Assembly: GCA_024277355.1 (NCBI GenBank)
Contig: JAJRVL010000001.1
Span: 102,363 to 134,362, forward strand
Length of the DNA: 32,000 nt
DNA from: an archaeon
GTDB lineage: Archaea; Iainarchaeota; Iainarchaeia; Iainarchaeales; 1-14-0-10-31-34
Direction: 5' to 3'
Positions 757 through 26,329 of the stretch are shown in pieces. The notes beneath the pieces are model-generated. The model had not been told where the DNA came from and did no database searches. It was given only the letters and a program-made list of their open reading frames with translations. A program made the translations under genes and the position numbers. Position 1 is the first letter of the stretch; each line of letters opens with the position of its first letter.

Positions 757-3700
757 ATGGGTTTGAAAGAAGTTTATTCTGCAATAGAAACCAAATATTA
801 TAATTTCATGGATGCGATAGACGAAAAAGGAATTCCAGTGTATAAAGCAATTGATTTTGTTGAATCAAAAAGCATTCCTTCTTTTCCTTTAGCAGTTATT
901 TTTTTTGTATTAATTTTATCAGGATTAATTTTAACTTTAAATGGCGGAAGCTTACTGCAGAATACAACTGAATTTGAATTAATGATAACAGATGGAACAA
1001 CAGCAATACAAGGAACAACAATAAGTTATTTTTTAGGAGAAAAACAAATTACAGTTACAACTAATAATCAAGGAAAAGCAGTAATTGAAGTAACTCAAGG
1101 AAAAGAATTTTCAGTTACAGCAGAAAAAAATGGATTTAAAAAAATAACTAAAACTTTTGATGCAAAAGATGAAAAAGCAACACTTGTTTTAATTGCAGAT
1201 ATATTAAAGCCAATTAAAATCCAGTTATTAGGAAAAGGAAACGAATTATTAGAAGAAGAAATAAAAGTTTCTTTTACTTGTTCTGAAAATGACAAATGGA
1301 ATGAAATAGTTTTATTTAACACAGGAACAACAAATTTAGCTGATGTTCCGGCAAACTGCGGAAAAATTTTAGCTGAACCAATAGGGAAAAAATGTTCAGA
1401 CTGTGACTTTGATGCATATGATTCATTAATTAAAATTTATTTAGAAGAAACCACAACAGAAAAAGGAACAATTAATTTTACTGTATTAGATGACAAAGGA
1501 AATTATGCTGAAGCAATACAAGTAATGGTTATTCCCACAGGAAATTTAAAAGAAGAAGATTCATGCTATACTTTTAATGGTTTATGTGAAACAGAAGTCC
1601 CATTTGGAACTTATTATATTAGAGCAACGGATTCAACAGGAAAATTAAGAGATTATGATTCAAGAAAAGATACAATAACTATTACATTAAATTCAAATAA
1701 CCAAAACATTGATTTTGAAGAAATAATTTTAGGACAAGGAGTAATTGGACAAATAAAAATTAAAATTAAAAGTGAAACAGGAAATTTAATTGAAGATGCA
1801 TTAGTCAGATTATTTAAAGATAATTCTGAAATAAACCAGCAAAGAAGCAATACAGAAGGAGAAATAATATTTAATGTTGCAGAACAAATTGATTACACTG
1901 TTTCAGTTACTCATGCAAATTATTTGAATTCAGATGTAAAAACGGTTTCTCCAAAAAATGATTTTTATTCATTTTCATTAAAAGAAGCAACTTCTTCTAA
2001 TAAAAGAAAAATTGAAGTAAACGTAGTAGACGAAAAAAATGAAGCAGTAGAAAACACTAAAGTTTTCTTAAAAGATGCATTAACCGGAAGCATTGTAGGA
2101 CAAGAAAAAGTAACTGGATTAGACGGAAAAGCTTCATTTGAAAGACTTCCAACAGGAAAATATATTTTAAGAGCAGAAAAAAGAGGCTTTGAAGGAAAAG
2201 ATTCAAGAGTAATTGAAGTAAAAGAAAATGAATTAAATGAAGTAACAATAAAATTAGATTTAGGACAGGGAAACCTTGACGTAATAGTTATAGATAAAGA
2301 AAAACAGCCAATTCAGTCAGCAACAATTAAAGTAATAGATTATTTTACAGGAAAAGAAATTTTTGTTGATTCAACTGACACTGAAGGAAAAAAAAGCTTT
2401 AATATCAGAGCAGACAAAAAAGTTTATTTAGAAGTAAATGAAAGTTCTCACTCTAATTATATTAGTGCACCGATTCAGATGTTTAATGGAACAGAAGAAA
2501 AAACAATTTTATTAGAAGATTCAATTAATTCTTTTGCAATTAAATTAGAAGAATTAAGTTTAGAAGGACAGGAAGTAGAAAACATTACTGTTTCAGAAGG
2601 AAGAACTTATAAAGCTAAATTCAAATTAATGATTCCAACAAATGTTTTTTCAAATAATGCAGGAGTTCATATCAGGACTGGCGCAGACACAAAAAACCAG
2701 AATAATACAATGGAAAAAGATGATTTATACATCAAAAAAGTTATTGCTTCAAATGCAAAAATAATTAAAGGAACAGCATTTAATCCAAATACAGGTTATG
2801 CAATTGACTCAAAGCATTTAACTTCAGGAAATGCAAAATGGACAAACATAATATTTAATTCAGTTAAAGAAGGAACCTATGAAGTTGAAATAGTAATTCA
2901 GGTAAGAGAAACCTTAAACGGCAGTCCAATGGAATTAGCTTATAGAGCTTGGATTGAAAACAATGGATATCAAAGAGATCCATATGATTCAGAATTACAG
3001 GAAGCAGAAAGTTCAGCATTAAAACAAGCATTATATGCAAAAACAAGACATGAACCATTAAAGATTGGGGCATCAAGTTTATGTGCAGAAAATTTTTGTT
3101 CAAGCTTTACAATAAAAGATTTGCAGAATGCAGTAAGAACAAATATAATTGATTCTTTTCCAGCAGAAATTTCAAGTAATTATGAATTAGAATTTAATAT
3201 AATCAGCACAAGCGAAAAAACTTATTCTAATAGCGAACTAATAATTAAAGGAAAAGGAATTGAATTAAATTCATATGAAATTCAAGGCACACAAAAAAAT
3301 GCTGAAGGAGAAATCATAGTTAAAACAGGATTAATAGAAAAAGGACAAAAAATTTCAGGGACAATAAATTTCACAACAAAAAAAGAAGGAACAAACAGAA
3401 TTGACTTAAGTTTGTTTGGAGAAAGTTCAACTTTAGGAAAAGAAAAAATATTATTTAAGCCTATAAGAGCTGAAGTAAAACATGCAAAAACAATGATTGT
3501 TTCAAATTCTCCTCAGAATTTAGTTCCATTTATTAAAAATAATTTATTAGTAAGAATAACAGATGAAGAAGAAAATGAATTAAGTGAAGTAGAAATAAAA
3601 ATAGAAAAGGACTTTGAATTAATTGCTTCAGGAAAAACTGATTCAAAAGGAATTTTTGCTTTTGGGTTTGAAGCAATGAACCCAGGAACAAAAATAATTA

Positions 3701-6700
3701 TTACTGCAGAAAAATACGGTTTTAATTCAGTTGAAAAAGAAATGAAAATACAGGAAAATATTATTGATGTTTCTCCTCCTGAAATAAATGAAAGCTTTAA
3801 TGCAAAACAAGATTATGCAGTAACAAGAGATATAACTTTAAAGAACACAACTGAAATGCCTTTGACTGTTATTGGAGCAGAATTAACTGATTCATTCAGA
3901 GGAATGATTGAAAGTGAAATTACAGGAACAGGAAAAGAATTAACAATAGGAAATTCAGAAAGCATTTTAATTAAACTTGAAATGACAAACAAAGGAAAAA
4001 ACATTAAAACATTAACTTCTTTAAGCGGAGAAGTTGTTTTGATTTTAGAAAACCTTGAAGCAGGAAAGCAATGGACTGCAAGTGTTCCAGTAAAAATTAC
4101 AATCGGGTTAGGCGGAGAAGTTGATTCAGCTGACTGTTTTAGTTTAAGTCCAAATTCATGGACTGCATTAACAGAAAATAAAACAAAAGAAATCAAATTA
4201 AATTTAGCAAATAATTGTACAGTTAAAGAAGAAAATATTTCATTAAAAGATGTTAAAGCAAAAGTTGTATGGAAAGAAAATGCAATTGGAACATTTGAAT
4301 TAACTTCAGGAATTGACGGAACAAAAACAACAACTTTAACTAATAATTATAAGACATTAAATGAAACATTTAATCCAAATACAGGAGAAGAAGAAAATTT
4401 AACTTTAATTTTTACTCCTGATGAAATTGCTTTAGGTTCAGGCACTGCAACAATTTATTTAGAAGCAGTTAATCCAACCGAAAAAGGAAACCAAAAATTA
4501 ATTCAAAAAATAGAAGTACAAACAGAAATAAGCAAATTAAGTGAATGTTTAAGGATTAGGCCTGCAAGCAATCAAATAAGAATCCAGATGAATTCATATA
4601 ATTATGGTTATGGATCTATGCCAAATTACTTTGGTTATACTCCTCAAAATAATTATTATTACGGCATGAATCCAAATTATTTAAGTTCAGGTAACAGAAA
4701 TTATCCTTTTACAAATTATCCTTATGATCCAAATGCTTCTGCCGGAAGTTTAAGAAATAACCCTAATGTAGTTTTCCCTGATGGCTGGAGAAGCCAGCAG
4801 TATCCTCATAATTATTATAATACAACTTACAGCAATCCAACAGGATTTAATCCAAACTTAAATAATGCCTGGAATACTGGTTCATTAGGCGCTCCAGGAA
4901 AAGCAACAATAGATATAGAAAATTCTTGTGCTTCAACAGTTCAAGTTGAATTAGAAGGAACACCAGAAATAAGTGTTTCCGACAGAACAATAGTATTAGA
5001 AAAAGGAAACCATAAAACAATTGAAATAACTCCAACAATGTTTATTGGACAATATCCTTTAACTATTAGAGCAAAACATAAGAGTTCAACTGACTCAGCT
5101 TTTGAAATAGCAAAATATAATGTTTTAGTTGAATCAGAATTTGAAAGAAATTATTATGACTGCATTAATTTAAGCAAAAGAGTATTTACTTTTAATGATG
5201 TAATACAAAAACCAGTTGAAGGAATGGTTTGGAATACCTGTTATGACACAGGAATAAGATTAAATTATCAGTCAATTCCAAGAAATTTAAGCGGAATAGG
5301 AAACTTTAATTTTCCTTCACCTCAGGACACAGGACAAAAAAGGCTTGGAAGTTCAGGAATGATTAGTTCAATTGAATTAATACAATTAGTTAATAAGCCT
5401 GGAGCAGAAGGAAAAATAATACAGGAATTAAAATTCAGAATGAGAAAAAATTTAGGTTATAGAACAGGAAAAATCCCTCAATTACCAAACCAAAACAATC
5501 CATTAATTGAATTAGCAAATTTAAGAATTAAATTAACAGGAGCATATTATACAATTGAAGCCGAAGAAAGACTTCCAATTACTTTCTTTGACAGAACAGG
5601 AAACACTCAGGTTATTCCATTTGATATTATAATAGAAGATTTATGGGCAGGACTGCCAATAATAGCAGAAGAAATAGAATTTGGAAACCCAAATGCAGCA
5701 CATCAGGAATGCATTGATGAAAGTGCATTGCAGTTTAGCGACTGTATTGCAGATGAATTATTTATTGACGGAGTAAGCAGATATATTGATGCCAGAAAAG
5801 TAATAAGAAAAGGAAAAGAATTTTGCGGCGACTCAGACAGAATTGCAAGATTAATTAATAGCGAGATAAAAGATGATTCAGGAATTACATTGAAATTTGA
5901 AGTAAAAGACGGCGACAAAATACAGGTAATAATAGATAAAACAAAAATGAAATATAATCCAGGAAGAATTGAAGGAAAATTATATGCAAGGCTTTCAAGA
6001 GTAAGTCCATTAGAAACAAAAACCGTTGAAATTCCTTTCTCTATTGAAGTATGTGAATTAGCAGAAAAACAAGAAAAATGTTTTGATAAAATAAAAGACA
6101 AAGAAGAAATAACAAAAGATTTAATTGACGAACAATGTCCTGATTTAAGTGAAGATGAAAAACAAGGAATAATAGATAAAACAAAAGAAACAGAAGAAAT
6201 CCAGTTATGTGAAAATGGGTTTACAGGAGAAACAGCATTCAAAGAATATGGTTTAGATAAAATCAAATTAAACTGGGAATGGAATTCAATTGAAGAAAAT
6301 GAATGTGACGCAGAAAACAATAATTCAATTTATTGTGATGCAGTACAATTTGCAATTGAATTAAATAAAAAAGCAAAAAACATCCGCAATTTAGGAGTTA
6401 TTGCAGGAGACTGTACTGGTTATTGTGAACAAACAGATTCATTGAATTTATTCAGGTTTATAATAGCTAAAACAAAAGTAAAAGATGATATTACAAAAGA
6501 ACTGCAATACTTTTTCCTTGATTCAAGTAATTCAATTATTGCAGGAAAAAAGTTTGATGGAACAGAATTCAAAACAGAAATTAATACAATAAAAGAAGCA
6601 TTAGAAACAGATTTAACTAATTCAAAAGCAAAAACAATAACTCAAGTAGTTAACACAATAATTGACGCAGTTAAAACTGATTCAGCAATTGATGAAACAG

Positions 6701-10183: not shown

Positions 10184-10216
10184 GGAGACGCAAAATGGTT
10201 TAATTCAGTCTGGTTT

Positions 10217-14662: not shown

Positions 14663-14666
14663 AAAC

Positions 14667-14682
14667 TTGTTTAATTAAACAA
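14667..14682. repeat. Perfect 16-nt palindrome ttgtttaattaaacaa, 4 nt after the giant-2 stop
   Basis: Read directly: the sequence equals its own reverse complement. It is AT-only, so any hairpin would be weak. It could be a protein-binding site or a weak terminator. Confidence 0.5.
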
Positions 14683-14745
14683 ACAATTAAATATAAATAA
14701 AAGCATAATATTTCTAATTTAAACTAAGTTAAAGAAGGGAATTTT

Positions 14746-17700: not shown

Positions 17701-20700
17701 AACAGGTTTGGTGAAACAGAATTTTTAATCCCAGTATTAGAACCAAACACTAAAATTGAATTTATTGCAGAAAAATTTGAATTTGAAACAGCAGTAAAAC
17801 AAGTAATTTTATCAGAAAACGTTTTTGTTGTTGAACCTGAAACAATAAATGAAACTTTAAGCCAGAGAAATAACCCTGAAATAACAAAAGAAATTACAAT
17901 AAAAAATTTACTTGAAACAGACTTAAAAATAGAAAAAATAGAATTAATTAATGAAACAGGCTATTTTGAAGAGTTTATTGAAATGGGTTTAATAAATGCA
18001 GTATTTGATTCATTTAATGGTACAATAATTAATTCTTATCCACAGGAATTTAATGGACAATTATTTAAAGTAAAATTACAGTCAGGTTTACCTGAAGGTT
18101 ATACTAGTTCCGCTAAAGGAATAATGACAATAAAATTAAAGAATGAAAGATTTAATGCAAGTTATTCAAAAGACATTAAAGTAGAATTAAATTTAGGGCA
18201 AGGCCAAGCAATAAATAATGCTTCTTGTCTGGAAATAGAAAACGGAGAAGCAATTTTTTCAAGGCAGACAACTTCTAATCCTGTTCAATTATCTTATAAA
18301 ATAGTAAATAATTGTATTGATGATTCCGGAGCAGGAATTAAAGTAAGAAATTTAAAAGCAAAAATTGAATGGACAGACAAAAAAGGAACTGTTTCATTGC
18401 AGATGAAAGGAAGAACAGCAGACTTAAAGACAACTTTATTCACTGACTTTTCTTCAGTTGTAAATGAAAGAGAAGAAATGCTTGTTTTGCTTACTTATAC
18501 TCCTGATGCAGAATTAACCGGAGAAGAAGGACAAACCGAATTTAACGTAATAATTGAAGCAGAAATAAATACTTCTTCAGGAATACAAATAATTAGAACT
18601 AATCCGCCTTTAATTAAAGGAACAATTGGAAATGTTGAATTACTTGAATGCATTGTATTTGACCCTAAACCAAAAATTGGAACAATAATTGAATCTGGAA
18701 GCGAAGAAGCAAACTTTTCAATAACAAACAACTGTGGAATGGAAATAGAATTAAGGTTTTGTAAAGGAGACACAAGATGCACTGGGGGAACTGAAGGAGG
18801 AATAATAGTTAAACCAGATACAATAGTTTCTTCATTAAAGATTGGAACAGGAAATAATAATGCAGAACAAGTAACAGTCAAAAGAACAAGTATTCCTGGA
18901 ATTTATGGAATAACAATTGAAGCAAAAAATGCAGGGGAAGCATGGAGAGAAATTTCAGTTTATGATGTTTTAGTTAAACCTAATGCAGGACATTATTTTA
19001 GTTTAGGAGATTATACAATTAAAGTCCCTGAAAAAAATAATCCGGATATAATTGAATTATATAATAACAGATTATTCACTAATGTTGATGTTGATGCAAG
19101 TGATTGTGTATGGGAAACAGCACAAGAAAAAAGTTTTGGAAGAAGCCTGCTTGAATTTGGCGGTTTAGCTTCAGGAGGAGCAGGCACTGCATTGCTTGTC
19201 ATGATGGCTTATAGCGGTCCTGCAGGATGGCTTACTGCAGGAATAGGCGCAGTAATTGGATTGGTTGTTTGTTTATTTGCCTGTTCTGACCCATGCGATG
19301 AAAGAACAACTGACACTTTACAGGATTACTTAATTAATTTAAGCGGAACAGGCGTTATTATGTCTAAAAGAAATTCTCCAAATCTTGCCGGAATTGAATT
19401 AACAATTAATGGAATTTCTACTGGTTACAGTTCTGAAGCAGCAATATTAGATTATACAAATGGCCCTCCAGGAAAAGAAACTCTTCCATTGACTTTTACT
19501 AAAATAACAGATTCATATAATAACATTAAGCCGACTTATGGAATTTTAACAATTAATGCAACAGAACATAATCAATTAACAGAATTAAATGTTCCAGAAA
19601 ATAATGATGACAGAGCAGGAGATTTAGTGCTTTATGGTTTGCCTGATAAATATTCAAATGGAAATGCAGATTATAATAATTTAACTGAAATTCAAAGAAA
19701 ATTCCATGTAAGAGCAATAACAAAAAGATTTATTGAAGAAATTCCTCCATTGCAGAGAAGTCTGGATTGTGTTAAACCAAACGGAGAAATTGGAGGAATA
19801 GGAGAACAAGCTTTACCTAAAATTAAATTAAACTGGGATTGGGATAAAATTGCATTTAATGAATGTGAAGAAGGAAACGAAAATTATATTTACTGTGATT
19901 CCTCTCAGTTTTCAGTAATGTTAAATAAAAGAATACACAAAATAGATGAATTTATGCAGAAAAACAATTTTAGTTTTTCATGTCCAGTAAATCCAGTAAC
20001 AGCAATAAATGAAGTACAATGGAATGCATCAAGAACAAACATAATTGAAAACGGAAAAATTGGAATAAAAGAAGTTCAAATTGAAACAAACAAGGAAACA
20101 GGAATAACAACAGTTTTAGCAGTAATAGAAAATAAAACAAGTGTTTCAATGAATTTAAATCCAGAAATAAATATTACTATTCCTGAAGGAATTGAATTTA
20201 CAGGAGAAAGTTCTTGTGTTACTTCAACAGGGAATATTGCATCAAACTCAACAAAAGAAGTTTCATGTGAATTTGAATTACCTGAAACAAATGAATTATA
20301 TAAAATAGAAATAAAACATATTTCCAAAACAGACTTTGATGCTTTAAGTGAAGAAGAACAAGGAAAATACAATCAAAACATATTCAATATAAATTACAGA
20401 TTAAATCAAATAAGTTCATGTTGGGCTGGAACAACAACAGGAATTTATTCAGGTTTATTTTCATTAAACCTTTATTTAAATAAATTAGATCCAAAATTTG
20501 GAGAATATGTAACTCAAAACGAAGTAAGAATTAATGGGCATTCAGTCCAGACTGACAGTCAGGAAATAATTAATGTAATAAAAGAAATCAAAAAATTAAG
20601 TCATTTTAATGTTTATATGATGAAAGATGGATTTAGTGAAGACTTTAAACAAGACTTTGCAGATTATTATGAAAACACTGCTTTTTTGGAAGGAGCAACA

Positions 20701-21852
20701 TGGTTTACTGATTCAGATTCAACAACAAAAAACAATGAATTAGCTGAATATTATAAACAAGGATTAATTTCATTTAACAGAAAATACTTAAATCAAGAAC
20801 AATTTGAATTGCCTGAACCAGGATTATATAGAGTTGATTTAAGCATTGATTACACTGGAGATAAATGGAATTTATTTGATTCAGAAGGAAACCCTAAAGC
20901 TAAAATAAAAGTTGAATTTACAAGATTACCTTCACCGACTCCAAACTCAATTTTTTATTATTTACCGTTTGACGGAAAAATAGGAGAAGAAAATTTCGCT
21001 TATCACAGAATAGGTTATGGAACAGGATACACTAATTTAAGGGAAGAACAATTAAAGATTAATTCTCAGACAATTCTTTCTTCAAGTCAGGCTTCAAGTA
21101 ATCCATTAAATGAAATGACAATAGAAAAAAGCGATTTATTAACTGAAATGAATTCAGAAGAAGAAACAAGAGGAAGCATTTTGAATTTAAATTATAATGG
21201 AGATGAACTAAACTTAAAGTTTTATCCTTCAAAAGCAACTCCAGTTGCATTAAAAATGCACCATGTGCAGACAACAGAAAATGATGAATTTAGTTATTAT
21301 TATGGAATGCAGGAATCAAATTTGCCTGTGACTGCAGGAAACAGATTAGCTTTTTGGAAAGGAATGGGTTCCTGCAGGGACTTTGAAGGAAAGTTTGTTC
21401 AGCAATACAAACAATGGGATTCAAAATATTCAAGTGAATCACAAAACTTATATGAAGTCAACTGGAATAATGCAATTAAAGGAGGCTCAACTTATTTGAA
21501 AACCGTGTTATATACTCCAATTGAAAGAAATATTTCATTAAAGGTTAATGAAACAGGTTCACTGCAAAATTCAAGTTTATTTACTTCAAATGAAGAAAAT
21601 TCTCCTTTGGTTTCATTAAATGGAATAAGCGGAATGGAATTTAATAACGCAAATCAGGGAACTTCAAGTTATTTGCAGAATATTGAAAATGTATTTGAAT
21701 TAGTTAGAAATGGAAATGCATGCATTTCACAAAATGATGTTTCAATGAATATTTACTGGAATGAAGCAGAATTATTCAGAACACAAGGATTAACTAAAAG
21801 TCTAAACGAATTAGAAGATTCATTGATTGCGGGAACAAACTGCATTGGATGA
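14746..21852 (+). CDS. Giant membrane-anchored surface protein, paralog 3 (2368 aa), TTG start
   Basis: The TTG start is supported by homology of MGLKDIYYSIEDKYYSLIEKTPLTKITDKIDSIVPSF to the N-termini of giants 1 and 2, and by GAAGGGA (14734-14740) 5 nt upstream. It has a TM helix AVLIALIILISGFLVLPF and CarboxypepD_reg-like repeats, e.g. GKLKIILVDEDKKNIANARVMLKDEDGSLL...AEGIVEYTGIKKGIYFAYAEKY. An internal Gly/Ala-rich hydrophobic segment lies at nt 19147-19290. Confidence 0.93.
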   Translation: MGLKDIYYSIEDKYYSLIEKTPLTKITDKIDSIVPSFAVLIALIILISGFLVLPFFGGEEYSFTVTIKDEQGKKLEGIKVNVFIGEEKQVLTTDSEGKISLKAKKDLKIKIEIDNKKYEFIEKQFNLTENELSFEVELKKIEAEPAEANLKFTDKSGKYITGKEITVNLSCSNSSIKPSPSTVKDSDKDGEIKINIPKGCGKLVINSVEVEGYENWFGTINSAVETIKLNAIFLGQALGDLKVIVENSNGELLDDIKVSLMKGNSKIDQKYTVDGTAEFTGIEIGFYDLKLEDEKNGFEPKRVYSVEIENEKINERTVEMQPTKKGTLKINILDKETNSKIKNSEVIIENELGEIIGERNTGETGNTIEFGLYSTEKLIIKARAEKYLPEKTEINPETQKEVEIKLEKITAENSGKLKIILVDEDKKNIANARVMLKDEDGSLLTEYPEKFSDAEGIVEYTGIKKGIYFAYAEKYPASGLSDSFEIKLTEKTEIELKLIIGTAKIELQTITKDGEFIPNTRVKVKSIDEEKTYTLNSEGKTTLEIKADKRVFFEFFDSKNVYSKYTTKEYQLLPKNYFITATMPEQNLGENLWIELKGVYLNDTKQTILAGGKKYKAVLELFVPENESYEEAGIHFRTGEDENPFIENDLVWIEKINVSNASKIKGTTWNPKKGQQTDFDSDNSASSNAKAKWTNILWNNVEPGVYEAEIELRIREGTGDKEKVSLSFRAWGKGRNYYYFPADNELGSSSSTTTKQGLYAETFQKEFNTEEEVPVCMENNLCLSKQRLEDKTKEPFIIQKKLPFEAGANGNYEYSFKIVNNSQSIYDEPELWIELIDATGNLTEEAEISYYEIKTSEGNSKTKEVNSNETQGISLGLYGRQSVIEGIIGIKTKNTGNTFVNLKIFEKVNNGSNKIFDNEKKTEIKIKSGKALEIELMPELIPAFAETPATIIIKDLDGIEVEQARVKLNVIEEGNRKITIEEKQTNRFGETEFLIPVLEPNTKIEFIAEKFEFETAVKQVILSENVFVVEPETINETLSQRNNPEITKEITIKNLLETDLKIEKIELINETGYFEEFIEMGLINAVFDSFNGTIINSYPQEFNGQLFKVKLQSGLPEGYTSSAKGIMTIKLKNERFNASYSKDIKVELNLGQGQAINNASCLEIENGEAIFSRQTTSNPVQLSYKIVNNCIDDSGAGIKVRNLKAKIEWTDKKGTVSLQMKGRTADLKTTLFTDFSSVVNEREEMLVLLTYTPDAELTGEEGQTEFNVIIEAEINTSSGIQIIRTNPPLIKGTIGNVELLECIVFDPKPKIGTIIESGSEEANFSITNNCGMEIELRFCKGDTRCTGGTEGGIIVKPDTIVSSLKIGTGNNNAEQVTVKRTSIPGIYGITIEAKNAGEAWREISVYDVLVKPNAGHYFSLGDYTIKVPEKNNPDIIELYNNRLFTNVDVDASDCVWETAQEKSFGRSLLEFGGLASGGAGTALLVMMAYSGPAGWLTAGIGAVIGLVVCLFACSDPCDERTTDTLQDYLINLSGTGVIMSKRNSPNLAGIELTINGISTGYSSEAAILDYTNGPPGKETLPLTFTKITDSYNNIKPTYGILTINATEHNQLTELNVPENNDDRAGDLVLYGLPDKYSNGNADYNNLTEIQRKFHVRAITKRFIEEIPPLQRSLDCVKPNGEIGGIGEQALPKIKLNWDWDKIAFNECEEGNENYIYCDSSQFSVMLNKRIHKIDEFMQKNNFSFSCPVNPVTAINEVQWNASRTNIIENGKIGIKEVQIETNKETGITTVLAVIENKTSVSMNLNPEINITIPEGIEFTGESSCVTSTGNIASNSTKEVSCEFELPETNELYKIEIKHISKTDFDALSEEEQGKYNQNIFNINYRLNQISSCWAGTTTGIYSGLFSLNLYLNKLDPKFGEYVTQNEVRINGHSVQTDSQEIINVIKEIKKLSHFNVYMMKDGFSEDFKQDFADYYENTAFLEGATWFTDSDSTTKNNELAEYYKQGLISFNRKYLNQEQFELPEPGLYRVDLSIDYTGDKWNLFDSEGNPKAKIKVEFTRLPSPTPNSIFYYLPFDGKIGEENFAYHRIGYGTGYTNLREEQLKINSQTILSSSQASSNPLNEMTIEKSDLLTEMNSEEETRGSILNLNYNGDELNLKFYPSKATPVALKMHHVQTTENDEFSYYYGMQESNLPVTAGNRLAFWKGMGSCRDFEGKFVQQYKQWDSKYSSESQNLYEVNWNNAIKGGSTYLKTVLYTPIERNISLKVNETGSLQNSSLFTSNEENSPLVSLNGISGMEFNNANQGTSSYLQNIENVFELVRNGNACISQNDVSMNIYWNEAELFRTQGLTKSLNELEDSLIAGTNCIG

Positions 21853-21876
21853 AAGCAAAACATTAAAACCAAATTA

Positions 21877-21884
21877 TTTTAAAC
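21877..21884 (+). promoter_or_regulatory. TATA-like box TTTTAAAC, exactly 22 nt before the ATG of the first small membrane-protein gene (candidate leaderless promoter)
   Basis: The sequence reads attaTTTTAAACtacaaaaaacattatttaatttATG, with no SD in the 22-nt spacer. The same box and spacing occur at 29703 and 31166. Confidence 0.4.
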
Positions 21885-21906: not shown

Positions 21907-22236
21907 ATGTTTCCTGAATTAAGTTTTCTTTTTATTGGCGAATTTATTTCAGACATCGGTTTTGCATTAAAAATTTTTGTTTTAATTGCAATTGTTTCTT
22001 TTATTAAAAGTCATTTAGGTTCAGGGCCTTTTGCAGTAATTTTAATGGGTTTAACTGCTTATTTTGTTTTGTTTGATCAATGGAAATTATTTGGCGGAAT
22101 TTATGTGTTATATGTATTGTTTTTGTTTGGAGTAGGGCATTTAATGGTGGATTTCTTTTTTGTTGCACAGCATGCTCCTGGAGATGAAATGAGCCATATT
22201 CCAAGCCATAATATGCCTAAAGGAAGGATGCATTAA
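21907..22236 (+). CDS. Small polytopic membrane protein 1 (109 aa, ~3 TM), unknown family
   Basis: Hydrophobic helices IGFALKIFVLIAIVSFI, GPFAVILMGLTAYFVLF and LFGGIYVLYVLFLFGVGHLMVDFFFV. It has the loop motif KSHLGSGP shared with the next ORFs and a His-rich C-tail. It is the first of five back-to-back ORFs. Confidence 0.75.
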   Translation: MFPELSFLFIGEFISDIGFALKIFVLIAIVSFIKSHLGSGPFAVILMGLTAYFVLFDQWKLFGGIYVLYVLFLFGVGHLMVDFFFVAQHAPGDEMSHIPSHNMPKGRMH

Positions 22237-22237
22237 A

Positions 22238-22570
22238 ATGAATGAAAAAGGCGGATTAATTCTGATTATTTTTGGCTTATTTGTCATTGTAGGCTTATTG
22301 CCTTGGATTTTAATGAGCATAGTCCCGCAAGCAAAAATATTAATTCAATTAATCCTTGTTTTTGCGATTTATACTGCAGTAAGAGGCTATCTTGGATCTG
22401 GAACTTTAACTTTAATTATTTCAGGAGTATTAATTTACATTTTAGTAATAAAATATGCTGCATTTTCTTCTGCTGCTTATATGTATATGGTTGTTGTTCA
22501 GGTTGGAGTCAGTTCAATGCTTATCTGGGGAACAAATTTCTTTTTAATTAAGTTTGGGAGAAAACATTAA
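22238..22570 (+). CDS. Small polytopic membrane protein 2 (110 aa, ~4 TM), paralog of protein 1
   Basis: It starts 1 nt after the previous stop (TAAaATG), with AGGAAGGA at 22221-22228, 9 nt upstream. It carries the motif RGYLGSGT followed by LTLIISGVLIYILV. Confidence 0.78.
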   Translation: MNEKGGLILIIFGLFVIVGLLPWILMSIVPQAKILIQLILVFAIYTAVRGYLGSGTLTLIISGVLIYILVIKYAAFSSAAYMYMVVVQVGVSSMLIWGTNFFLIKFGRKH

Positions 22571-22581
22571 AGAGTGATAAA

Positions 22582-22833
22582 ATGGATTTAATGGTTTTTT
22601 CTGCTTTGGCTTTGGATTTAGAAATAGTTTTATCATTATTTTTTCTTGTATGGGTTTATGCTTGGGCAAAAGGAAAATTAGGCAGTCCAAAACTGGCAAT
22701 AATTTTTGCAGCAATAATTGTTTATTTGACTGTATCACAACACAGAGAATTAATCTGGTTAGGAGTGTTATTATTCTTATTAGCAACATTTGGAAAAGAA
22801 TTACTTGAAAAATTTAAGATTTATGGTGAATAA
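22582..22833 (+). CDS. Small polytopic membrane protein 3 (83 aa, ~3 TM), same family
   Basis: GAGTGAT at 22572-22578 lies 3 nt before the ATG. It carries the motif KGKLGSPK followed by LAIIFAAIIVYL. The N-terminus MDL... is shared with protein 4. Confidence 0.75.
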   Translation: MDLMVFSALALDLEIVLSLFFLVWVYAWAKGKLGSPKLAIIFAAIIVYLTVSQHRELIWLGVLLFLLATFGKELLEKFKIYGE

Positions 22834-23142
22834 ATGGATTTATTTAATTTAATTTTAGCAGTAATTTTTTTAATGATGGCCACGCAATGGGGCGAACCCT
22901 GGCTGATTGTGGGTTTATTATTAATTTTAGTTGTAGCAATGAAAGACTTTAAGTCAACAATAATTCTTTTTGTTGCAGCAATAGCATTATTTTTAATAAA
23001 AGACAATTTACAGGAATATGCTTTATTTGTAATAATTGGATTAATTTTATTAGCATTAATTTTAGGCAAAAAAACAGAAGAAGGGGGCCAATCCGAAATG
23101 TTTAATCCAGGAGGATTAGGCGGATTAATGGAAGGAATGTAA
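22834..23142 (+). CDS. Small polytopic membrane protein 4 (102 aa, ~4 TM), divergent member of the same family
   Basis: The ATG abuts the previous stop (TAAATG), and GGTGA at 22825-22829 lies inside the upstream gene, which suggests translational coupling. It has four hydrophobic helices and a Gly-rich C-tail NPGGLGGLMEGM. Confidence 0.75.
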   Translation: MDLFNLILAVIFLMMATQWGEPWLIVGLLLILVVAMKDFKSTIILFVAAIALFLIKDNLQEYALFVIIGLILLALILGKKTEEGGQSEMFNPGGLGGLMEGM

Positions 23143-23144
23143 AA

Positions 23145-23516
23145 ATGAAATTAAGTTATTTACTTGTATTAGTTTTATTTTTCTTTTATTTTTATTTTAA
23201 TGGACCTTATTTTATTGCTTGGATTATTGGAATACTTATTTTATTAATTGTAATTTCAAATCTTTTTTCTTCTACAACCGGAATTGCAAAAGCAACAGGA
23301 AAAGAATTACTCAGAGATGTTGAGTCAGACATGGAAAAAGCTAATCCTACAACTCCAAATAAAGAATACTTAAAAGAAATAATAAAAGAAACCGGAAGGA
23401 AAACAGGAGAAGCATTAGCTCCTGAAAATTACACTTATAAAAACAAAAATCTTTGGGAAAAAATAGGGCAGGGAACAAAAAATTTCTTTAATGGGTTAAA
23501 AAAAATATTTGAATAA
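23145..23516 (+). CDS. Small membrane protein 5 (123 aa): N-terminal hydrophobic hairpin plus a charged soluble C-terminal half
   Basis: It starts 2 nt after the previous stop, with GAAGGA at 23131-23136. The N-terminus is LLVLVLFFFYFYF..YFIAWIIGILILLIVISNLF, followed by a K/E-rich tail. Confidence 0.75.
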   Translation: MKLSYLLVLVLFFFYFYFNGPYFIAWIIGILILLIVISNLFSSTTGIAKATGKELLRDVESDMEKANPTTPNKEYLKEIIKETGRKTGEALAPENYTYKNKNLWEKIGQGTKNFFNGLKKIFE

Positions 23517-23598: not shown

Positions 23599-24186
23599 TT
23601 ATTTTTTTGTTAAAAGTTTTCTTTCAGTTTCAAGGATTTTTTTCATAATGTCATGCATTGCATTAATTTTTGCTTTAAAATCCTTAAAATCATTTTTTAT
23701 TTCAGAAACATCTTTTTCTATAGCATTAATTTCTTTCTTTAATTCATTTAAAGAACCTGCATCAATTTTTCCATGAACTGAATCAATTTTTTTATGTAAT
23801 TCATTTAATTTGTCATCTTGTTCTTCAAGCTTTAAGTCAGTTGACTGTTGTTTTAATACATCAACTCCTTCTTTTTCAGCTAAATGTTCTTTAATTTTAT
23901 TTGATGTCTGTGTTATAACTGAATCAATATCATATTCTTGTATTGAAGGGGTTTCAGTTTCAGAAACTTTTTCATTTATTACTGCTTCTTTTTCTGGAAT
24001 TTCTGCAATATTTTTTCCTGTTTCTTTCGGTTTTACTCCGGAAGTTCCTTTAGCAGTTAAAAGTAATTCTTCTGATTCTTGTTCAGTTAATCCTAAATCA
24101 CTTAAAGTACTTAGGATTATTTTATCTTCTATACCTGAATTAAGCATTTTTTTTATTGTTTTAATTACTACTTCTTTGTTAACCAT
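23599..24186 (-). CDS. Coiled-coil protein (195 aa), unknown function
   Basis: The minus-strand ORF has proteome-like K/E/D-rich composition and heptad-like C-terminal two thirds (LNELHKKIDSVHGKID...LKKEINAIEKDVSEIKNDFKDFKAKINAMHDIMKKILE). The overlapping plus-strand ORFs (23576-23776, 23810-24199) are S/F-rich antisense artefacts. Confidence 0.72.
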   Translation of the reverse strand: MVNKEVVIKTIKKMLNSGIEDKIILSTLSDLGLTEQESEELLLTAKGTSGVKPKETGKNIAEIPEKEAVINEKVSETETPSIQEYDIDSVITQTSNKIKEHLAEKEGVDVLKQQSTDLKLEEQDDKLNELHKKIDSVHGKIDAGSLNELKKEINAIEKDVSEIKNDFKDFKAKINAMHDIMKKILETERKLLTKK

Positions 24187-24303: not shown

Positions 24304-25803
24304 ATGGATTTTAGAGTAAGAAACGGGCCATGGGAACAAATTTTTTCAGGAAACATGGAAGGATTTGAAATAGAAATTCATTCAAATCCAAAAAGCTTAA
24401 TTTTAGTTACAGTAATAGAAAAAGAAAATGAAGAAATACAAGGAGCAGTAATAGAAATATATAAAGTGTTTTTTGCTGAAGGCAGCATTGAAGATTTTAT
24501 TGAAACTCTTCCAAAAGAAGCAACAGTTTTATTAAAACATGAACCAAAAGAAACACTAAAATTTATGTTATTAAGTTCATCTCCAAGTTATGTTAAATAT
24601 GAAGAAAATGTTTTTTGCGATGAAGCAGAAGATTTAATAGAAAAAATTAATACTTCAAGTTCAATGATGAAAGATTTTTCCAAAGCATATGACCTTCAAT
24701 TAACTGAATTAGATAAGTCTCCTGAAAGAATCAAAAGCTCCTTTTTTTCACAGTCATTAATTGCACCATTACTTATTCCAAAAGGAATGGAAAATAAAAA
24801 TTCAGCTGAATCAACTCTTCAAATAACAGGAAAAGGAACAGTAATGCTGGGTTTAACTAAAGCAAATACAATGATTAAAGAACCATTGGAATTAATGATG
24901 AAAACCACAATTTTTGGTTCAACTCCAAAAGACAGAAAACATGTAATTCATTTAATTGCAGAAGGAGCATTACTTGATAATACTCCTGTGTTGATTTTTG
25001 ACAGAGATAAATCTTTTATCGGCTTAAACAAGCCAAATCCAGATGAAAAAATATTGAAAGAGTATGGAATTGATTTAGAGCCAATGGGGTTTCCAATAAA
25101 GCATTTTACAAGAGAAGAATTTAACATTGACTTAAATTTAATCAGCATTAAAGGATTATTAGAATTAATTGGAATGAAAGAAGGCGAAGAACAAAATATT
25201 ATTTCAAAATTAATTAAAGACACAAAACCAAAATCAATAAAAGAATTAATTGAAGCAGCAAAAAAACTTCCTACAAGAGATGAATCAAAAATAACAAACA
25301 AATACCGTTCAATCAGAATACTAAGTTTAATTGACAACAAATACAAGGGATTATTTAACGGAGAAAACAACATAAAAGAAATAACTAAAAGTTCAGGAAA
25401 AACAATTGGAAGAGTAGGAATAATTCATTTAGAAGGATTAGATGAAACAGCTTTAAGTTTATTAATTCACAGCATGCTTAAAGGAATTTATTTAGAATAC
25501 AGTAAATCAAAACAAAAAATTAATTCAATGATTTTTTTGCCTGAAATAAAACCGATTCTTTACTCAAAAAACAACAGTATTATTACAAAAGAAATAATTG
25601 AATTATTAGACAAACTTAAATCAGTTGGAATTGGTTTTGCTTTAAGCTCAGACAGGCCAATTGACTTAAGAAAAGAAATAATGAAAATCTCTGAAGCAGA
25701 AATATTTTTAATTAACAGAAATGACGTTGGAGTAAAAGTAGCTAAAAGCAAACAATTCAGAATAAAATTAAATCCAACTTTAAGTGCCTGTGAAGAAAAA
25801 TAA
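24304..25803 (+). CDS. HerA/DUF87-like P-loop NTPase homolog with degenerate catalytic motifs (499 aa) and a novel ~170-aa N-terminal domain
   Basis: Collinear matches to the HerA/DUF87 layout: KTTIFGSTPKDRKHVIHLIAEG..PVLIFDRDKSF vs the h-G-x-T-G-S-G-K-S ... viDphgEY pattern; GRVGIIHLEGLDETALSLLIHSMLKGIY vs iiDLSgl..e....vv; SMIFLPEIKPIL vs hhhhEEAH; LKSVGIGFALSSDRPIDL vs GRKyGvgl.lvsQrPs.l. The family call comes from recalled motif patterns, not from a search. Confidence 0.6.
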   Translation: MDFRVRNGPWEQIFSGNMEGFEIEIHSNPKSLILVTVIEKENEEIQGAVIEIYKVFFAEGSIEDFIETLPKEATVLLKHEPKETLKFMLLSSSPSYVKYEENVFCDEAEDLIEKINTSSSMMKDFSKAYDLQLTELDKSPERIKSSFFSQSLIAPLLIPKGMENKNSAESTLQITGKGTVMLGLTKANTMIKEPLELMMKTTIFGSTPKDRKHVIHLIAEGALLDNTPVLIFDRDKSFIGLNKPNPDEKILKEYGIDLEPMGFPIKHFTREEFNIDLNLISIKGLLELIGMKEGEEQNIISKLIKDTKPKSIKELIEAAKKLPTRDESKITNKYRSIRILSLIDNKYKGLFNGENNIKEITKSSGKTIGRVGIIHLEGLDETALSLLIHSMLKGIYLEYSKSKQKINSMIFLPEIKPILYSKNNSIITKEIIELLDKLKSVGIGFALSSDRPIDLRKEIMKISEAEIFLINRNDVGVKVAKSKQFRIKLNPTLSACEEK

Positions 25804-25812
25804 TTAGTTATG

Positions 25813-25837: not shown

Positions 25838-25849
25838 CTTTTCTTCTTT

Positions 25850-26329
25850 TTACTTTTTTGTTTTTTTCTTTTTTGTTTTTGGAGCACTTGATTTATTATT
25901 TGAAATTAAATCTTTCACTTGGCCTAAAGTAACAAACTCTAAGGGATTAATTGCTTCAATAATATATTTTAATTCCTTTAAGTCTTCAGATTTAGCAAAA
26001 GAAGAATTCATTTTATTTAAATCAGATTTAATTTCATTTAACATAAAATCATTTTGCTTGACTTTTTCCTCTAATTCTTCAACTAAATCATTTACTTCAG
26101 TTGAAACTCCTTCAGACTGAACAGAAGCAACAGGTTTTTTTTGTTCAAAAGCCTTTAATTTTTTGTTTAAAATAATAAAATTTCTTCCAAGAATTTTTTC
26201 ATTTCTAACCAAATAATTCATTTTCTGGCTTAACAATAAAACAGAACTGTTTAATGCCCTGATATCCCGAATAATATCTTCTAAAGTATAACCTGAACTC
26301 TTTCCTTTTTCAGCTCGTCTATGAGGCAT
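25850..26329 (-). CDS. Coiled-coil protein (159 aa) with a poly-Lys C-tail, unknown function
   Basis: GGAG (reverse complement of ctcc in 26336-26340) lies 6 nt upstream of the ATG. Heptad-like segments include LVEELEEKVKQNDFMLNEIKSDLNKMNSSF. It ends APKTKKKKTKK. Confidence 0.75.
   Translation of the reverse strand: MPHRRAEKGKSSGYTLEDIIRDIRALNSSVLLLSQKMNYLVRNEKILGRNFIILNKKLKAFEQKKPVASVQSEGVSTEVNDLVEELEEKVKQNDFMLNEIKSDLNKMNSSFAKSEDLKELKYIIEAINPLEFVTLGQVKDLISNNKSSAPKTKKKKTKK

What the first reader, a model, noticed from the sequence alone, without database searches (positions are those of the whole stretch)
757..26329. Locus-level hypothesis: giant anchored proteins, five tiny polytopic membrane proteins, a degenerate HerA-like hexamer scaffold and coiled-coil proteins may form one uncharacterised envelope or host-contact apparatus
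The gene order is giant1-giant2-giant3 (+), then five translationally coupled 83-123-aa membrane proteins (+), a 195-aa coiled-coil protein (-), a HerA/DUF87-like protein with degenerate P-loop (+), and a 159-aa coiled-coil protein (-). Only after that do housekeeping genes follow (polB, map). No transposase or integrase flanks the block, so it looks like resident chromosome. Small 2-4-TM proteins combined with a HerA/VirB4-class ring NTPase is the architecture of the archaeal Ced (CedA/A1/A2 + CedB) and Ted DNA-transfer systems and of other envelope-spanning translocators. Here the NTPase appears catalytically dead, and the locus additionally encodes giant proteins. Their most conserved part is the short N-terminal segment preceding the anchor helix, which is the part that would face the cytoplasm and could dock onto a membrane platform. 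A structural rather than motor HerA-like ring, a small-TM-protein base and giant extracellular arms would be a plausible attachment or intercellular-bridge organelle for an episymbiotic archaeon. This is inference from gene neighbourhood and motifs only.
Basis: inference. Interest (0 to 1): 0.8.

Follow-up and report, generated by a model that had tools for sequence, protein, structure and literature searches.

The report
Conserved DPANN surface-protein and dead-HerA gene block
A block of genes for giant membrane-anchored surface proteins, five tiny membrane proteins and a catalytically dead HerA-type ring protein flanked by two coiled-coil proteins is real and keeps its order across two phyla of tiny DPANN archaea, but the evidence points to two linked modules of unknown function, not a DNA-transfer machine.

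Summary
Window 757-26329 encodes three giant N-terminally anchored proteins, five tightly packed small membrane proteins (S1-S5), a coiled-coil protein (CC1, minus strand), a HerA-fold protein (H), a second coiled-coil protein (CC2, minus strand), then PolB and Map. H matches HerA by profile and fold. Its Walker A and B motifs are degenerate in every member examined of a family of more than 170 clusters. Searches seeded with H and, separately, with S3 recovered about 100 Iainarchaeota loci; nearly every locus with enough flank has the same order. PolB (29/29) and Map stay adjacent too, so synteny alone cannot assign H to the surface genes. In the sister phylum Micrarchaeota only CC1-H-CC2 recurs. 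The giants with small membrane proteins, and PolB, are each lost from the neighbourhood in some loci. After controlling for PolB divergence, two groups co-vary: giant plus S1-S4, and CC1-H-CC2, with weak cross-links. The Ced/Ted analogy fails: no active ATPase, no VirB6-like channel, no detectable VirB2-like pilin. My best reading (about 0.4) is a membrane platform for giant surface proteins loosely coupled to a non-motor HerA/coiled-coil scaffold. The main rival (about 0.3) is an unrelated cytoplasmic triad. Function is untested.

The parts
757..8088 (+). Giant 1 (2443 aa). It has a conserved ~40-aa cytoplasmic N-tail, one TM helix (aa 43-61), transthyretin/Ig-like repeats (CarboxypepD_reg E=2e-24), and then about 1800 aa with no known domain.
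8105..14662 (+). Giant 2 (about 2185 aa), a paralogue of G1 and G3. It is split by one in-frame TAA at 10181-10183 into 692-aa and 1481-aa ORFs in the same frame, and homology continues across the stop.
14746..21852 (+). Giant 3 (2368 aa, TTG start). It has the N-tail and TM helix (aa 37-55) plus an internal Gly/Ala-rich hydrophobic segment (aa ~1496-1514). A second conservation peak lies at aa 1681-1720 (the KIKLNWxW...YIYCD motif).
21907..22236 (+). S1, a 109-aa polytopic membrane protein and paralogue of S2 and S3. Invariant residues include D16, K22 and D82. A promoter-like ATTTTAAAC sits 31 nt upstream of its start codon.
22238..22570 (+). S2, a 110-aa polytopic membrane protein. It starts 1 nt after the S1 stop codon.
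22582..22833 (+). S3, an 83-aa protein with 3 TM segments and the most conserved gene of the block (mean column identity 62%). Its mean pairwise distance is 0.65, against 0.71 for PolB. The WAKxNLGSxK loop and FGK tail are inferred to face the cytoplasm.
22834..23142 (+). S4, a 102-aa membrane protein with a conserved NPGG-type C-terminal tail. It starts directly after the S3 stop codon.
23145..23516 (+). S5, a 123-aa protein with two N-terminal TM segments and an ~80-aa hydrophilic tail. It is the fastest evolving gene of the block.
23599..24186 (-). CC1, a 195-aa protein. It has a conserved ~45-aa N-terminal helical domain, an acidic linker, a coiled coil and a conserved C-terminal helix (IMxKILETxRKIL). 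It lay upstream of H on the opposite strand in 60/60 loci.
24304..25803 (+). H, a 499-aa HerA-fold protein with an N-terminal beta domain, a RecA-like core and a helical insert. At the Walker A position it reads FGSTPKDRKH (family pattern G-x(3-6)-R, never GK[ST]). At the Walker B position it reads LPEIK. It is predicted to be unable to hydrolyse NTP.
25850..26329 (-). CC2, a 159-aa protein. It has a very conserved N-terminal helix (LNSS..QKMxYLVRNEKILGRNL), a coiled coil, an ELKYVxDxINPLEF motif and a Lys-rich tail. It lay downstream of H on the opposite strand in 43/44 loci.
26404..28791 (+). Family B DNA polymerase, transcribed divergently from CC2. It is a neighbour and not shown to be part of the system, but it was adjacent in 29/29 Iainarchaeota loci and 3 of 6 Micrarchaeota loci.
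28784..29695 (+). Type II methionine aminopeptidase, a housekeeping neighbour. It serves as a marker of the high background synteny, being within 10 kb in 12/13 loci.

Best explanation
The block is the Iainarchaeota form of a gene neighbourhood shared by Iainarchaeota and Micrarchaeota. I read it as two modules rather than one proven machine.

**Module A (surface).** One to several tandem giant proteins are anchored N-in by a single TM helix, with a conserved ~35-40-aa cytoplasmic N-tail. Outside the cell they carry a stalk of transthyretin/Ig-like repeats, then about 1800 aa of unknown fold. They are followed by a separately promoted operon of five small polytopic membrane proteins.

**Module B (cytoplasmic).** A HerA-fold protein has lost the Walker A lysine/Ser-Thr and, in this phylum, the Walker B acids. 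It is always bracketed by two oppositely transcribed coiled-coil proteins.

**Proposed mechanism (inferred).**
1. S1-S5 form a hetero-oligomeric membrane platform that holds or organises the giants through their TM helix and N-tail.
2. The dead-HerA protein, presumably a hexameric ring like HerA, acts with CC1 and CC2 as a non-motor cytoplasmic scaffold or regulator.
3. In most lineages that scaffold works at the platform.
4. It does not translocate DNA or protein itself.

**Shown:** the gene content, the fold, the loss of catalytic motifs, the conservation and the modular co-variation.

**Inferred:** all physical interactions, ring formation, topology and any role in cell-cell contact.
For: - **Giants look like surface proteins.** They have an N-terminal TM helix and Ig-like repeats: CarboxypepD_reg in 16/16, Big_1 in 12/16 and SpaA in 11/16.
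- **The N-tail is conserved across both phyla.** Pair identity is 0.49 at aa 1-40, and the N-tail profile scores E=2e-12 on a Micrarchaeal giant.
- **S1-S5 look like one operon.** They are orthologous and keep the same order in every Iainarchaeota locus, with spacers of 0-11 nt. S3 is more conserved than PolB.
- **H is a dead HerA-fold protein**.
- **Strict co-occurrence from two independent seeds.** An H-seeded scan gave 25 species genomes and an S3-seeded scan gave 72 metagenome loci. The S cluster is upstream of H in 45/46, H is downstream of S3 in 37/37, and a giant is upstream of S1 in 45/46.
- **The order survives insertions** of 1-4.5 kb of toxin-antitoxin, restriction-modification and pilin-like genes at several junctions.
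- **Micrarchaeota partly retain it.** The full order recurs in L104. S4/S5-like proteins, CC1-H and a giant recur together in L105, where PolB is absent.
- **Envelope genes are interleaved in L104.** LysM-M23, M23 and NlpC/P60 cell-wall hydrolase genes sit among S5, CC1, H and CC2, which suggests an envelope theme.
- **Co-variation beyond PolB phylogeny (partial Mantel test).** Giant C-terminus with S1-S4 gives r = 0.30-0.41 (p <= 0.0035). CC1-CC2 gives 0.54, H-CC2 0.40 and H-CC1 0.34. Cross-links are H-S2 0.32 (p=0.002) and H-S5 0.22.
- **Prior report of similar giants.** Tandem membrane-anchored proteins over 1800 aa in another Diapherotrite were already interpreted as cell-cell interaction proteins (PMC5905446).
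Against: - PolB and Map are as constantly adjacent as the surface genes (29/29 and 12/13). Conserved order is therefore partly a property of these genomes, not proof of function.
- In Micrarchaeota the triad occurs without S genes or a giant within 10 kb (L107, L108), and with PolB only (L107).
- Most cross-module co-variation is near zero: H-S3 0.02, H-S4 0.02, H-giant 0.06. Partial Mantel tests are also known to be liberal.
- H, CC1 and CC2 are separate transcription units from S1-S5, which appears to have its own promoter.
- No interaction, localisation or expression data exist.
- The giants' C-terminal two thirds and all S and CC proteins have no recognisable homologues.
- Structure prediction of the giant C-terminal domain failed (pLDDT 31).
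Confidence: 0.4

Rival explanations
1. The neighbours are independent. CC1-H-CC2 is a self-contained cytoplasmic module, for example a DNA-bound or cell-cycle scaffold derived from a HerA translocase. It sits beside the surface genes only because this lineage inherited and rarely rearranges that gene order. The giants plus S1-S5 are a separate envelope module.
For: - The triad recurs across both phyla.
- It is found alone in L108 and with PolB only in L107.
- CC2 and PolB are transcribed divergently 74 nt apart, and PolB is adjacent in 29/29 loci.
- Map adjacency shows strong background synteny.
- HerA relatives are DNA translocases.
- Co-variation separates into two groups, and H-giant is only 0.06.
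- Housekeeping DNA genes (ScpA, ligase, FEN1) lie near H in L105 and L108.
Against: - PolB is absent from the neighbourhood in L105, L108 and L109, so there is no fixed link to replication either.
- In L105 H stays with S4/S5-like proteins and a giant while PolB is gone.
- H, CC1 and CC2 evolve about twice as fast as PolB, which is unusual for core replication factors.
- Cell-wall hydrolases are interleaved with the triad in L104.
- H-S2 and H-S5 show residual co-variation.
Confidence: 0.3
2. The block is a dedicated biogenesis pathway. S1-S5, possibly with H, CC1 and CC2 as chaperone-like cytoplasmic factors, recognise the conserved N-tail plus TM of the giants. They then insert or export these very long proteins, by analogy with accessory Sec systems that handle giant adhesins. 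Energy would come from the general Sec/YidC machinery.
For: - The N-tail and TM are conserved across both phyla, like a targeting signal.
- The S operon lies immediately downstream of the giants.
- The giant C-terminus co-varies with S1-S4.
Against: - The block has no ATPase-competent component.
- The S proteins show no similarity to SecY/E/G or YidC-type insertases beyond chance-level hits.
- The analogy rests on my own knowledge of aSec systems, not on a test.
Confidence: 0.12
3. The block is a Ced/Ted- or T4SS-like DNA or macromolecule transfer system, with small TM proteins as pilin or channel and the HerA/VirB4-class protein at its base.
For: Small 2-4-TM proteins sit near a HerA-superfamily protein.
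Against: - Both Walker motifs are lost in every family member examined.
- No 6-7-TM VirB6/CedA-like protein exists in the block.
- The S1 and S3 profiles match no solved structure; I recall that the CedA1 and TedC pilins have been deposited.
- The best structural matches are HerA proper.
- H is not co-transcribed with the S genes.
- Ced/Ted is defined by VirB4, VirB6 and VirB2 homologues (PMC9905601).
Confidence: 0.03
4. The block is a HerA-scaffolded anti-virus defence system, like Sir2-HerA or DUF4297-HerA.
For: The structural matches include the HerA subunits of such systems. Toxin-antitoxin and restriction-modification genes insert nearby in some relatives.
Against: - H, the S proteins and CC2 have no PADLOC hit.
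- No effector enzyme is adjacent.
- The ATPase is dead.
- The genes behave as a fixed, vertically inherited part of the chromosome in about 100 loci, rather than as a patchy island.
Confidence: 0.03

Closest known systems
HerA (FtsK-HerA superfamily hexameric DNA translocase; HerA-NurA; PDB 4d2i, 9x1m, 7wrw)
   Same: The overall predicted fold matches, with Foldseek E down to 6.6e-13 and HerA as the top 50 hits. The profile matches Sulfolobus HerA at E=3e-4. DUF87 hits occur in 8/18 members. H has the same length class and domain order: N-terminal beta domain, RecA-like core and helical insert.
   Different: No Walker A GK[ST] occurs in any member; an Arg occupies the approximate Lys position in a loop of variable length. 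The Walker B acids are lost in Iainarchaeota. There are no NurA, Mre11 or Rad50 neighbours. H is always flanked by two coiled-coil proteins. Identity to HerA is about 10-12%.
Ced / Ted archaeal DNA-import systems (CedA/A1/A2/B; TedA/B/C) and bacterial T4SS
   Same: Several small membrane proteins are encoded near a HerA/VirB4-superfamily protein, and the setting is the archaeal cell envelope.
   Different: Ced/Ted needs an active VirB4-like ATPase, a 6-7-TM VirB6-like channel and a 2-TM VirB2-like pilin (PMC9905601). None of these is detectable here. The giants have no counterpart in Ced/Ted.
Tandem giant membrane-anchored proteins of Ca. Forterrea multitransposorum (Diapherotrites)
   Same: Both cases come from the same phylum-level lineage. 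Forterrea has five membrane-anchored proteins over 1800 aa within 42 kb, which the authors suggest act in cell-cell interaction (PMC5905446). The window has three in 21 kb.
   Different: That paper does not describe the small membrane protein operon or the dead-HerA/coiled-coil triad. Sequence homology to the Forterrea proteins was not tested here.
HerA-scaffolded defence complexes (Sir2-HerA/Nezha, DUF4297-HerA)
   Same: In those complexes a HerA ring serves as an assembly platform for partner proteins, and they are among the structural matches.
   Different: Those HerA proteins are reported as active ATPases with an enzymatic effector (from the entry descriptions and my own knowledge). Here there is no effector, no PADLOC match, and the distribution is core-like and syntenic.
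Archaellum motor scaffold (ArlH/FlaH RecA-like ring with ArlX or ArlCDE coiled-coil scaffold and ArlJ membrane platform). This is an analogy from my own knowledge and was not tested.
   Same: The concept is shared: a catalytically impaired RecA-family ring plus coiled-coil scaffold proteins beneath a polytopic membrane platform.
   Different: The protein families differ. The archaellum has an active ATPase (ArlI), and none is present here. No homology was detected.

Membership tests
HerA / DUF87 (FtsK-HerA superfamily) | HerA-type fold: N-terminal beta-barrel domain, RecA-like core and helical insertion | tested here: met
   The AF2 model has pLDDT 81.6. The top 50 Foldseek PDB hits are all HerA, with best E=6.6e-13 and TM about 0.46-0.50.
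HerA / DUF87 (FtsK-HerA superfamily) | Sequence-profile similarity to HerA or DUF87 | tested here: met
   The family profile matches 4d2i HerA at E=3e-4. Pfam DUF87 hits occur in 8/18 members, best E=3e-6. The window protein alone has no hit.
HerA / DUF87 (FtsK-HerA superfamily) | Walker A motif GxxxxGK[ST] | tested here: not met
   The window protein reads FGSTPKDRKH. The family pattern is G-x(3-6)-R with no GK[ST] in any of the 18 + 23 + 13 aligned members, including Micrarchaeota.
HerA / DUF87 (FtsK-HerA superfamily) | Walker B motif hhhhD/E-E | tested here: not met
   The position aligned to HerA IEEAH reads LPEIK, IPRIE or LANAG in Iainarchaeota. An acidic residue is retained in part of the Micrarchaeota branch (VVFDEP, VVFEPE).
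HerA / DUF87 (FtsK-HerA superfamily) | Genomic association with NurA, Mre11 and Rad50 | tested here: not met
   None appears in about 100 loci. The neighbours are CC1, CC2, S1-S5 and PolB.
HerA / DUF87 (FtsK-HerA superfamily) | Hexameric ring assembly | not testable with these tools
   Only monomer prediction was available.
Ced / Ted (archaeal T4SS-derived DNA import) | Active VirB4/CedB-like ATPase | tested here: not met
   The catalytic motifs are lost. The best structural matches are HerA proper. No other ATPase is encoded in the block.
Ced / Ted (archaeal T4SS-derived DNA import) | VirB6/CedA/TedA-like channel with 6-7 TM helices | tested here: not met
   The largest membrane protein in the S cluster is 123 aa with 2-4 hydrophobic segments.
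Ced / Ted (archaeal T4SS-derived DNA import) | VirB2/CedA1/TedC-like two-TM pilin | tested here: inconclusive
   The S3 and S1 family profiles find no solved structure at E<=10, apart from a chance-level SecG hit. Pfam gives nothing significant. Ced and Ted pilins themselves lack mutual sequence similarity (PMC9905601), so a fold-level test would be needed, and none was possible.
HerA-based anti-phage defence systems | Match to known defence-system models and an adjacent effector | tested here: not met
   PADLOC gives no hit for H, S1-S5 or CC2, and only generic coiled-coil hits for CC1. No effector gene is present.
Giant membrane-anchored surface proteins of Diapherotrites/Iainarchaeota | More than 1800 aa, membrane anchor, tandem arrangement | tested here: met
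   The three giants have 2443, ~2185 and 2368 aa, each with an N-terminal TM helix. Compare PMC5905446. Sequence homology to the published Forterrea proteins was not tested.
Micrarchaeota S-layer protein (SLP_Mh, PF05123-type) | S-layer domain PF05123, about 100 kDa | tested here: not met
   None of 16 giants gave a PF05123 hit. The published SLP is 101 kDa (10.1101/2021.04.28.441871).

The most novel reading that the evidence does not exclude
All parts form one envelope-spanning organelle specific to Iainarchaeota and Micrarchaeota. A nucleotide-dead HerA hexamer with CC1 and CC2 would form a cytoplasmic base. S1-S5 would form the membrane platform. The giants would be the extracellular arms that contact other cells. 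Such a structure could be the genetically unassigned large docking structure seen by cryo-ET in the envelope of a Micrarchaeota-related DPANN (PMC11329633). It would be a cell-contact machine built on a motor protein turned into a scaffold.
Probability: 0.15. Interest if true: 0.85.

Novelty: new variant of a known kind. Interest (0 to 1): 0.62.

Why it matters
DPANN archaea depend on contact with other cells, yet the genes behind their contact structures are almost unknown. Cryo-ET of one Micrarchaeota-related symbiont showed a large envelope docking structure whose composition has not been identified (PMC11329633).

This block gives a concrete candidate gene set that is conserved across two phyla. 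It comprises giant surface proteins, a five-protein membrane module more conserved than the DNA polymerase, and a whole family of HerA-type proteins (more than 170 clusters at 50% identity) that have given up catalysis. None of these families is in Pfam or NCBIfam, and I found no paper describing them.

Even if the modules prove independent, a family-wide inactivated HerA that always pairs with two coiled-coil proteins is a clear case of a motor turned into a scaffold or regulator. It can be tested with simple biochemistry.

Tried and rejected
1. Searching Pfam, NCBIfam and PDB with the window H protein alone gave nothing. Only family profiles and structure worked.
2. A second word-index homologue search with a broader H alignment returned no new proteins. 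The exhaustive profile search was needed to reveal the larger family.
3. Profiles of CC1 and CC2 against PDB and Pfam gave only generic coiled-coil matches such as GCN4, SMC and haemagglutinin.
4. S1 and S3 profiles against PDB and Pfam gave only chance-level hits to SecG and MnhE.
5. AF2 of the giant C-terminal domain, using only the three window paralogues as the alignment, failed (pLDDT 30.7). No fold search was run on it.
7. The giants are not the Micrarchaeota S-layer protein: the family and size differ.
8. A defence-system reading was rejected after PADLOC found nothing.
9. A mobile-element reading was rejected. No integrase or transposase was noticed in the window, and the block has a fixed position next to PolB and Map in about 100 loci.
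10. The 223-aa gene at the CC2 position in L105 is a genuine ScpA neighbour, not a CC2 homologue.
11. Rfam and tRNA scans of the window found nothing.
12. The ATTTTAAAC motif is not enriched overall: 3 matches against about 8 expected. Only its fixed distance of about 31 nt from several start codons is suggestive.

Full report
**What is in the window.** The window has about 28% G+C, with no tRNA and no Rfam match.

| Gene | Coordinates | Strand | Size |
|---|---|---|---|
| G1 | 757-8088 | + | 2443 aa |
| G2 | 8105-14662 | + | ~2185 aa |
| G3 | 14746-21852 | + | 2368 aa |
| S1 | 21907-22236 | + | 109 aa |
| S2 | 22238-22570 | + | 110 aa |
| S3 | 22582-22833 | + | 83 aa |
| S4 | 22834-23142 | + | 102 aa |
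| S5 | 23145-23516 | + | 123 aa |
| CC1 | 23599-24186 | - | 195 aa |
| H | 24304-25803 | + | 499 aa |
| CC2 | 25850-26329 | - | 159 aa |
| PolB | 26404-28791 | + | 795 aa |
| Map (type II) | 28784-29695 | + | 303 aa |

- PolB and Map are identified by Pfam E=5e-66 and TIGR00501 E=2e-95.
- G2 carries a single in-frame TAA at 10181-10183, and homology to G1 and G3 continues across it.
- The spacers between S1-S5 are 1, 11, 0 and 2 nt.
- A promoter-like (A/T)TTTAAAC element lies about 31 nt before the start codons of G1, G3, S1 and two downstream secreted-protein genes. S1-S5 therefore looks like its own operon.
- CC1/H and CC2/PolB are divergent gene pairs, 117 and 74 nt apart.

**The giants.** Each has a 35-40-aa N-tail followed by one strong TM helix. 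The first ~550 aa outside the membrane are transthyretin/Ig-like repeats. Across 16 orthologues, CarboxypepD_reg is found in 16, Big_1 in 12, SpaA in 11 and SdrD_B in 7. The remaining ~1800 aa match no family.

In an alignment of 19 full-length orthologues, the N-tail (aa 1-40, pair identity 0.49) is one of two conservation peaks. The other is a Cys-containing motif at G3 aa 1681-1720 (0.51). Elsewhere identity is 0.2-0.4.

G3 and several orthologues have an internal Gly/Ala-rich hydrophobic segment; G1 does not.

Tandem membrane-anchored proteins over 1800 aa have already been reported in another Diapherotrite and interpreted as cell-cell interaction proteins (PMC5905446). The giants are not the 101-kDa Micrarchaeota S-layer protein.

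**The HerA-like protein.** The window protein alone hits nothing in Pfam, NCBIfam or PDB. Family-level evidence is clear:
- 8 of 18 homologues hit DUF87.
- The family profile hits Sulfolobus HerA 4d2i at E=3e-4.
- The AF2 model (pLDDT 81.6) has HerA structures as its top 50 Foldseek matches (best E=6.6e-13).

At the Walker A position the family reads G-x(3-6)-R, and never GK[ST]. At the position aligned to HerA's IEEAH, the Iainarchaeota members read LPEIK or similar. An exhaustive profile search found 173 cluster representatives at E<=1e-30 and 400 at E<=1e-3, nearly all 470-510 aa. Thirteen divergent members, mostly from Micrarchaeota, also lack the P-loop lysine. The loss of catalysis is therefore ancient and family-wide.

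**Small membrane proteins and coiled-coil proteins.**
- S1, S2 and S3 are weak paralogues.
- S3 is the most conserved gene of the block, with 62% mean column identity and a mean distance of 0.65 against 0.71 for PolB.
- From charge distribution I infer that its WAKxNLGSxK loop and FGK tail face the cytoplasm.
- Neither the S1 nor the S3 family profile finds a solved structure or a significant Pfam family.
- CC1 has a conserved ~45-aa N-terminal helical domain, an acidic linker, a coiled coil and a conserved C-terminal helix.
- CC2 has a near-invariant N-terminal helix, a coiled coil and an INPLEF motif.
- Both coiled-coil proteins give only generic coiled-coil matches.

**Synteny within the phylum.** Context look-ups for H homologues at 32-53% identity all showed the same order: giant(s), five small ORFs, CC1(-), H, CC2(-), PolB. 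An H-seeded scan of species-representative genomes gave 25 loci, essentially all labelled Iainarchaeum or unclassified archaeon. A separate S3-seeded scan of metagenomes gave 72 loci.

Mapping family HMMs on all of them gave the counts below. Some loci are redundant.

| Relationship | Loci |
|---|---|
| CC1(-) upstream of H | 60/60 |
| CC2(-) downstream of H | 43/44 |
| PolB after CC2 | 29/29 |
| S cluster upstream of H | 45/46 |
| H downstream of S3 | 37/37 |
| Giant upstream of S1 | 45/46 |
| Map within 10 kb | 12/13 |

The order survives insertions of 1-4.5 kb at several junctions. The inserted genes are toxin-antitoxin pairs, a restriction-modification pair, a nucleotidyltransferase/HEPN-like pair, and proteins with pilin-like N-termini by my reading of the sequences. 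However, PolB and Map are equally fixed, so conserved order cannot by itself assign H to the surface genes.

**Outside the phylum.** Contexts of divergent H homologues from Micrarchaeota break the tie only partly.

| Locus | Arrangement |
|---|---|
| L104 | Giant, about 13 small ORFs (including S2/S3-, S4- and S5-like), LysM-M23, CC1, H, M23, NlpC/P60, CC2, an ATPase_2 protein, PolB, Map |
| L105 | S4/S5-like proteins, CC1, H, a giant on the opposite strand; no PolB |
| L106 | CC1-H-CC2-PolB-Map; the contig starts at CC1 |
| L107 | CC1-H-CC2-PolB; no S genes or giant upstream |
| L108 | CC1-H-CC2 only |
| L109 | Neither neighbour |

The unit that recurs is the triad, present in 4 of 6 loci, with L105 keeping CC1-H only. 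Both the surface genes and PolB can be lost from its neighbourhood.

**Co-variation.** For 23 non-redundant Iainarchaeota loci I compared pairwise distance matrices, controlling for PolB distance with a partial Mantel test of 2000 permutations. Two groups stand out:
- **Giant C-terminus with S1-S4:** r = 0.30-0.41 (p <= 0.0035), and S1-S2 r = 0.60.
- **The triad:** CC1-CC2 0.54, H-CC2 0.40, H-CC1 0.34.

Cross-links are weak: H-S2 0.32, H-S5 0.22 and CC-giant about 0.27. H-S3, H-S4 and H-giant are near zero. The test is liberal, and linked genes can share recombination history, so I treat this as supporting modularity rather than proving interaction.

**Comparison with known systems.** Ced/Ted is defined by a VirB4-like ATPase, a VirB6-like 6-7-TM channel and a VirB2-like pilin (PMC9905601). 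Here the ATPase is dead, no such channel exists and no pilin-like similarity is detectable, so membership is rejected.
- HerA proper shares the fold but not the motifs or the partners.
- HerA-based defence systems are excluded by PADLOC, by the lack of an effector and by the core-like distribution.
- I found no paper on this family; a search for DUF87 with DPANN returned zero papers.

- **Best explanation (about 0.4).** This is a lineage-specific envelope neighbourhood of two modules. One is a membrane platform (S1-S5) for the giant surface proteins. The other is a non-motor dead-HerA/coiled-coil scaffold that usually works with it.
- **Main rival (about 0.3).** The triad is an independent cytoplasmic module, possibly associated with DNA or the cell cycle, kept nearby by inherited gene order.
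- **Other rivals.** A dedicated biogenesis pathway for the giants is about 0.12. A DNA-transfer machine and a defence system are each about 0.03.

The block is a good candidate for the unknown DPANN cell-contact structures seen by cryo-ET (PMC11329633), but nothing here shows that.

Noticed in passing
window 10181-10183: A single in-frame TAA interrupts giant 2, and homology to G1 and G3 continues directly across it (KSST*GDAKWFNSVW). It could be a pseudogene, a sequencing error or programmed readthrough.
   Followed up: partly
window 444-756: A 313-nt intergenic tract upstream of giant 1 is 68% A on the + strand (214 A, 49 T, 25 C, 25 G). It contains no ORF or Rfam match.
   Followed up: no
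window 1-443: The gene that runs in from the left edge ends at TAA 300-302. The same frame then stays open for 46 more codons, a Cys/Gly-rich stretch, up to a stop at 441-443. This is a second possible in-frame stop. The protein is not giant-like.
   Followed up: no
window 726-734, 14716-14724, 21876-21884, 29702-29710, 31165-31173: A (A/T)TTTAAAC-type element lies 30-32 nt upstream of the start codons of G1, G3, S1, the PKD-protein gene and the last gene. It is probably the TATA/BRE region of short-leader transcripts. It is not enriched window-wide (3 matches against about 8 expected).
   Followed up: partly
window 29733-31163 and 31197-32000: Two more predicted surface proteins follow Map. 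One is a 476-aa PKD-domain protein with a signal peptide and a C-terminal TM helix. The other is a Cys-rich secreted protein that runs off the window. PolB and Map are thus embedded among envelope genes.
   Followed up: partly
window 19180-19330 (G3 aa ~1480-1530): G3 has an internal Gly/Ala-rich hydrophobic segment, with a hydropathy peak of 2.29 at aa 1496-1514. It is also present in L006 and reflected in the consensus of 16 orthologues, but absent from G1. It could be a second membrane anchor or a membrane-inserting loop.
   Followed up: partly
L104:8485-9243, 11515-13257, 13324-15771: In one Micrarchaeon, three predicted peptidoglycan hydrolases (LysM+M23, M23, NlpC/P60), each with a hydrophobic segment, are interleaved with S5, CC1, H and CC2. 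This is unexpected for an archaeon and hints at attack on a walled partner.
   Followed up: partly
L033:10938-14950; L074:5416-9977; L010, L022, L031, L035 between H and CC2; L040:7585-9053: Several junctions of the block are insertion hot spots. Inserted genes include toxin-antitoxin pairs, a methyltransferase with a putative restriction partner, a nucleotidyltransferase/HEPN-like pair, a 1405-aa secreted protein, and three independent proteins whose N-termini look like archaeal pilin (class III) signals by eye. The core order is kept throughout.
   Followed up: partly
window 26404-29695 and L104:17615-21323: PolB-Map adjacency is conserved from Iainarchaeota to a Micrarchaeon although the two genes have no obvious functional link. 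In the window the called Map start (TTG 28784) overlaps the PolB stop by 8 nt.
   Followed up: no
L107:12199-16278: The PolB next to the triad in this Micrarchaeal locus is 1359 aa and carries an intein with a LAGLIDADG endonuclease, according to the precomputed Pfam hits.
   Followed up: no
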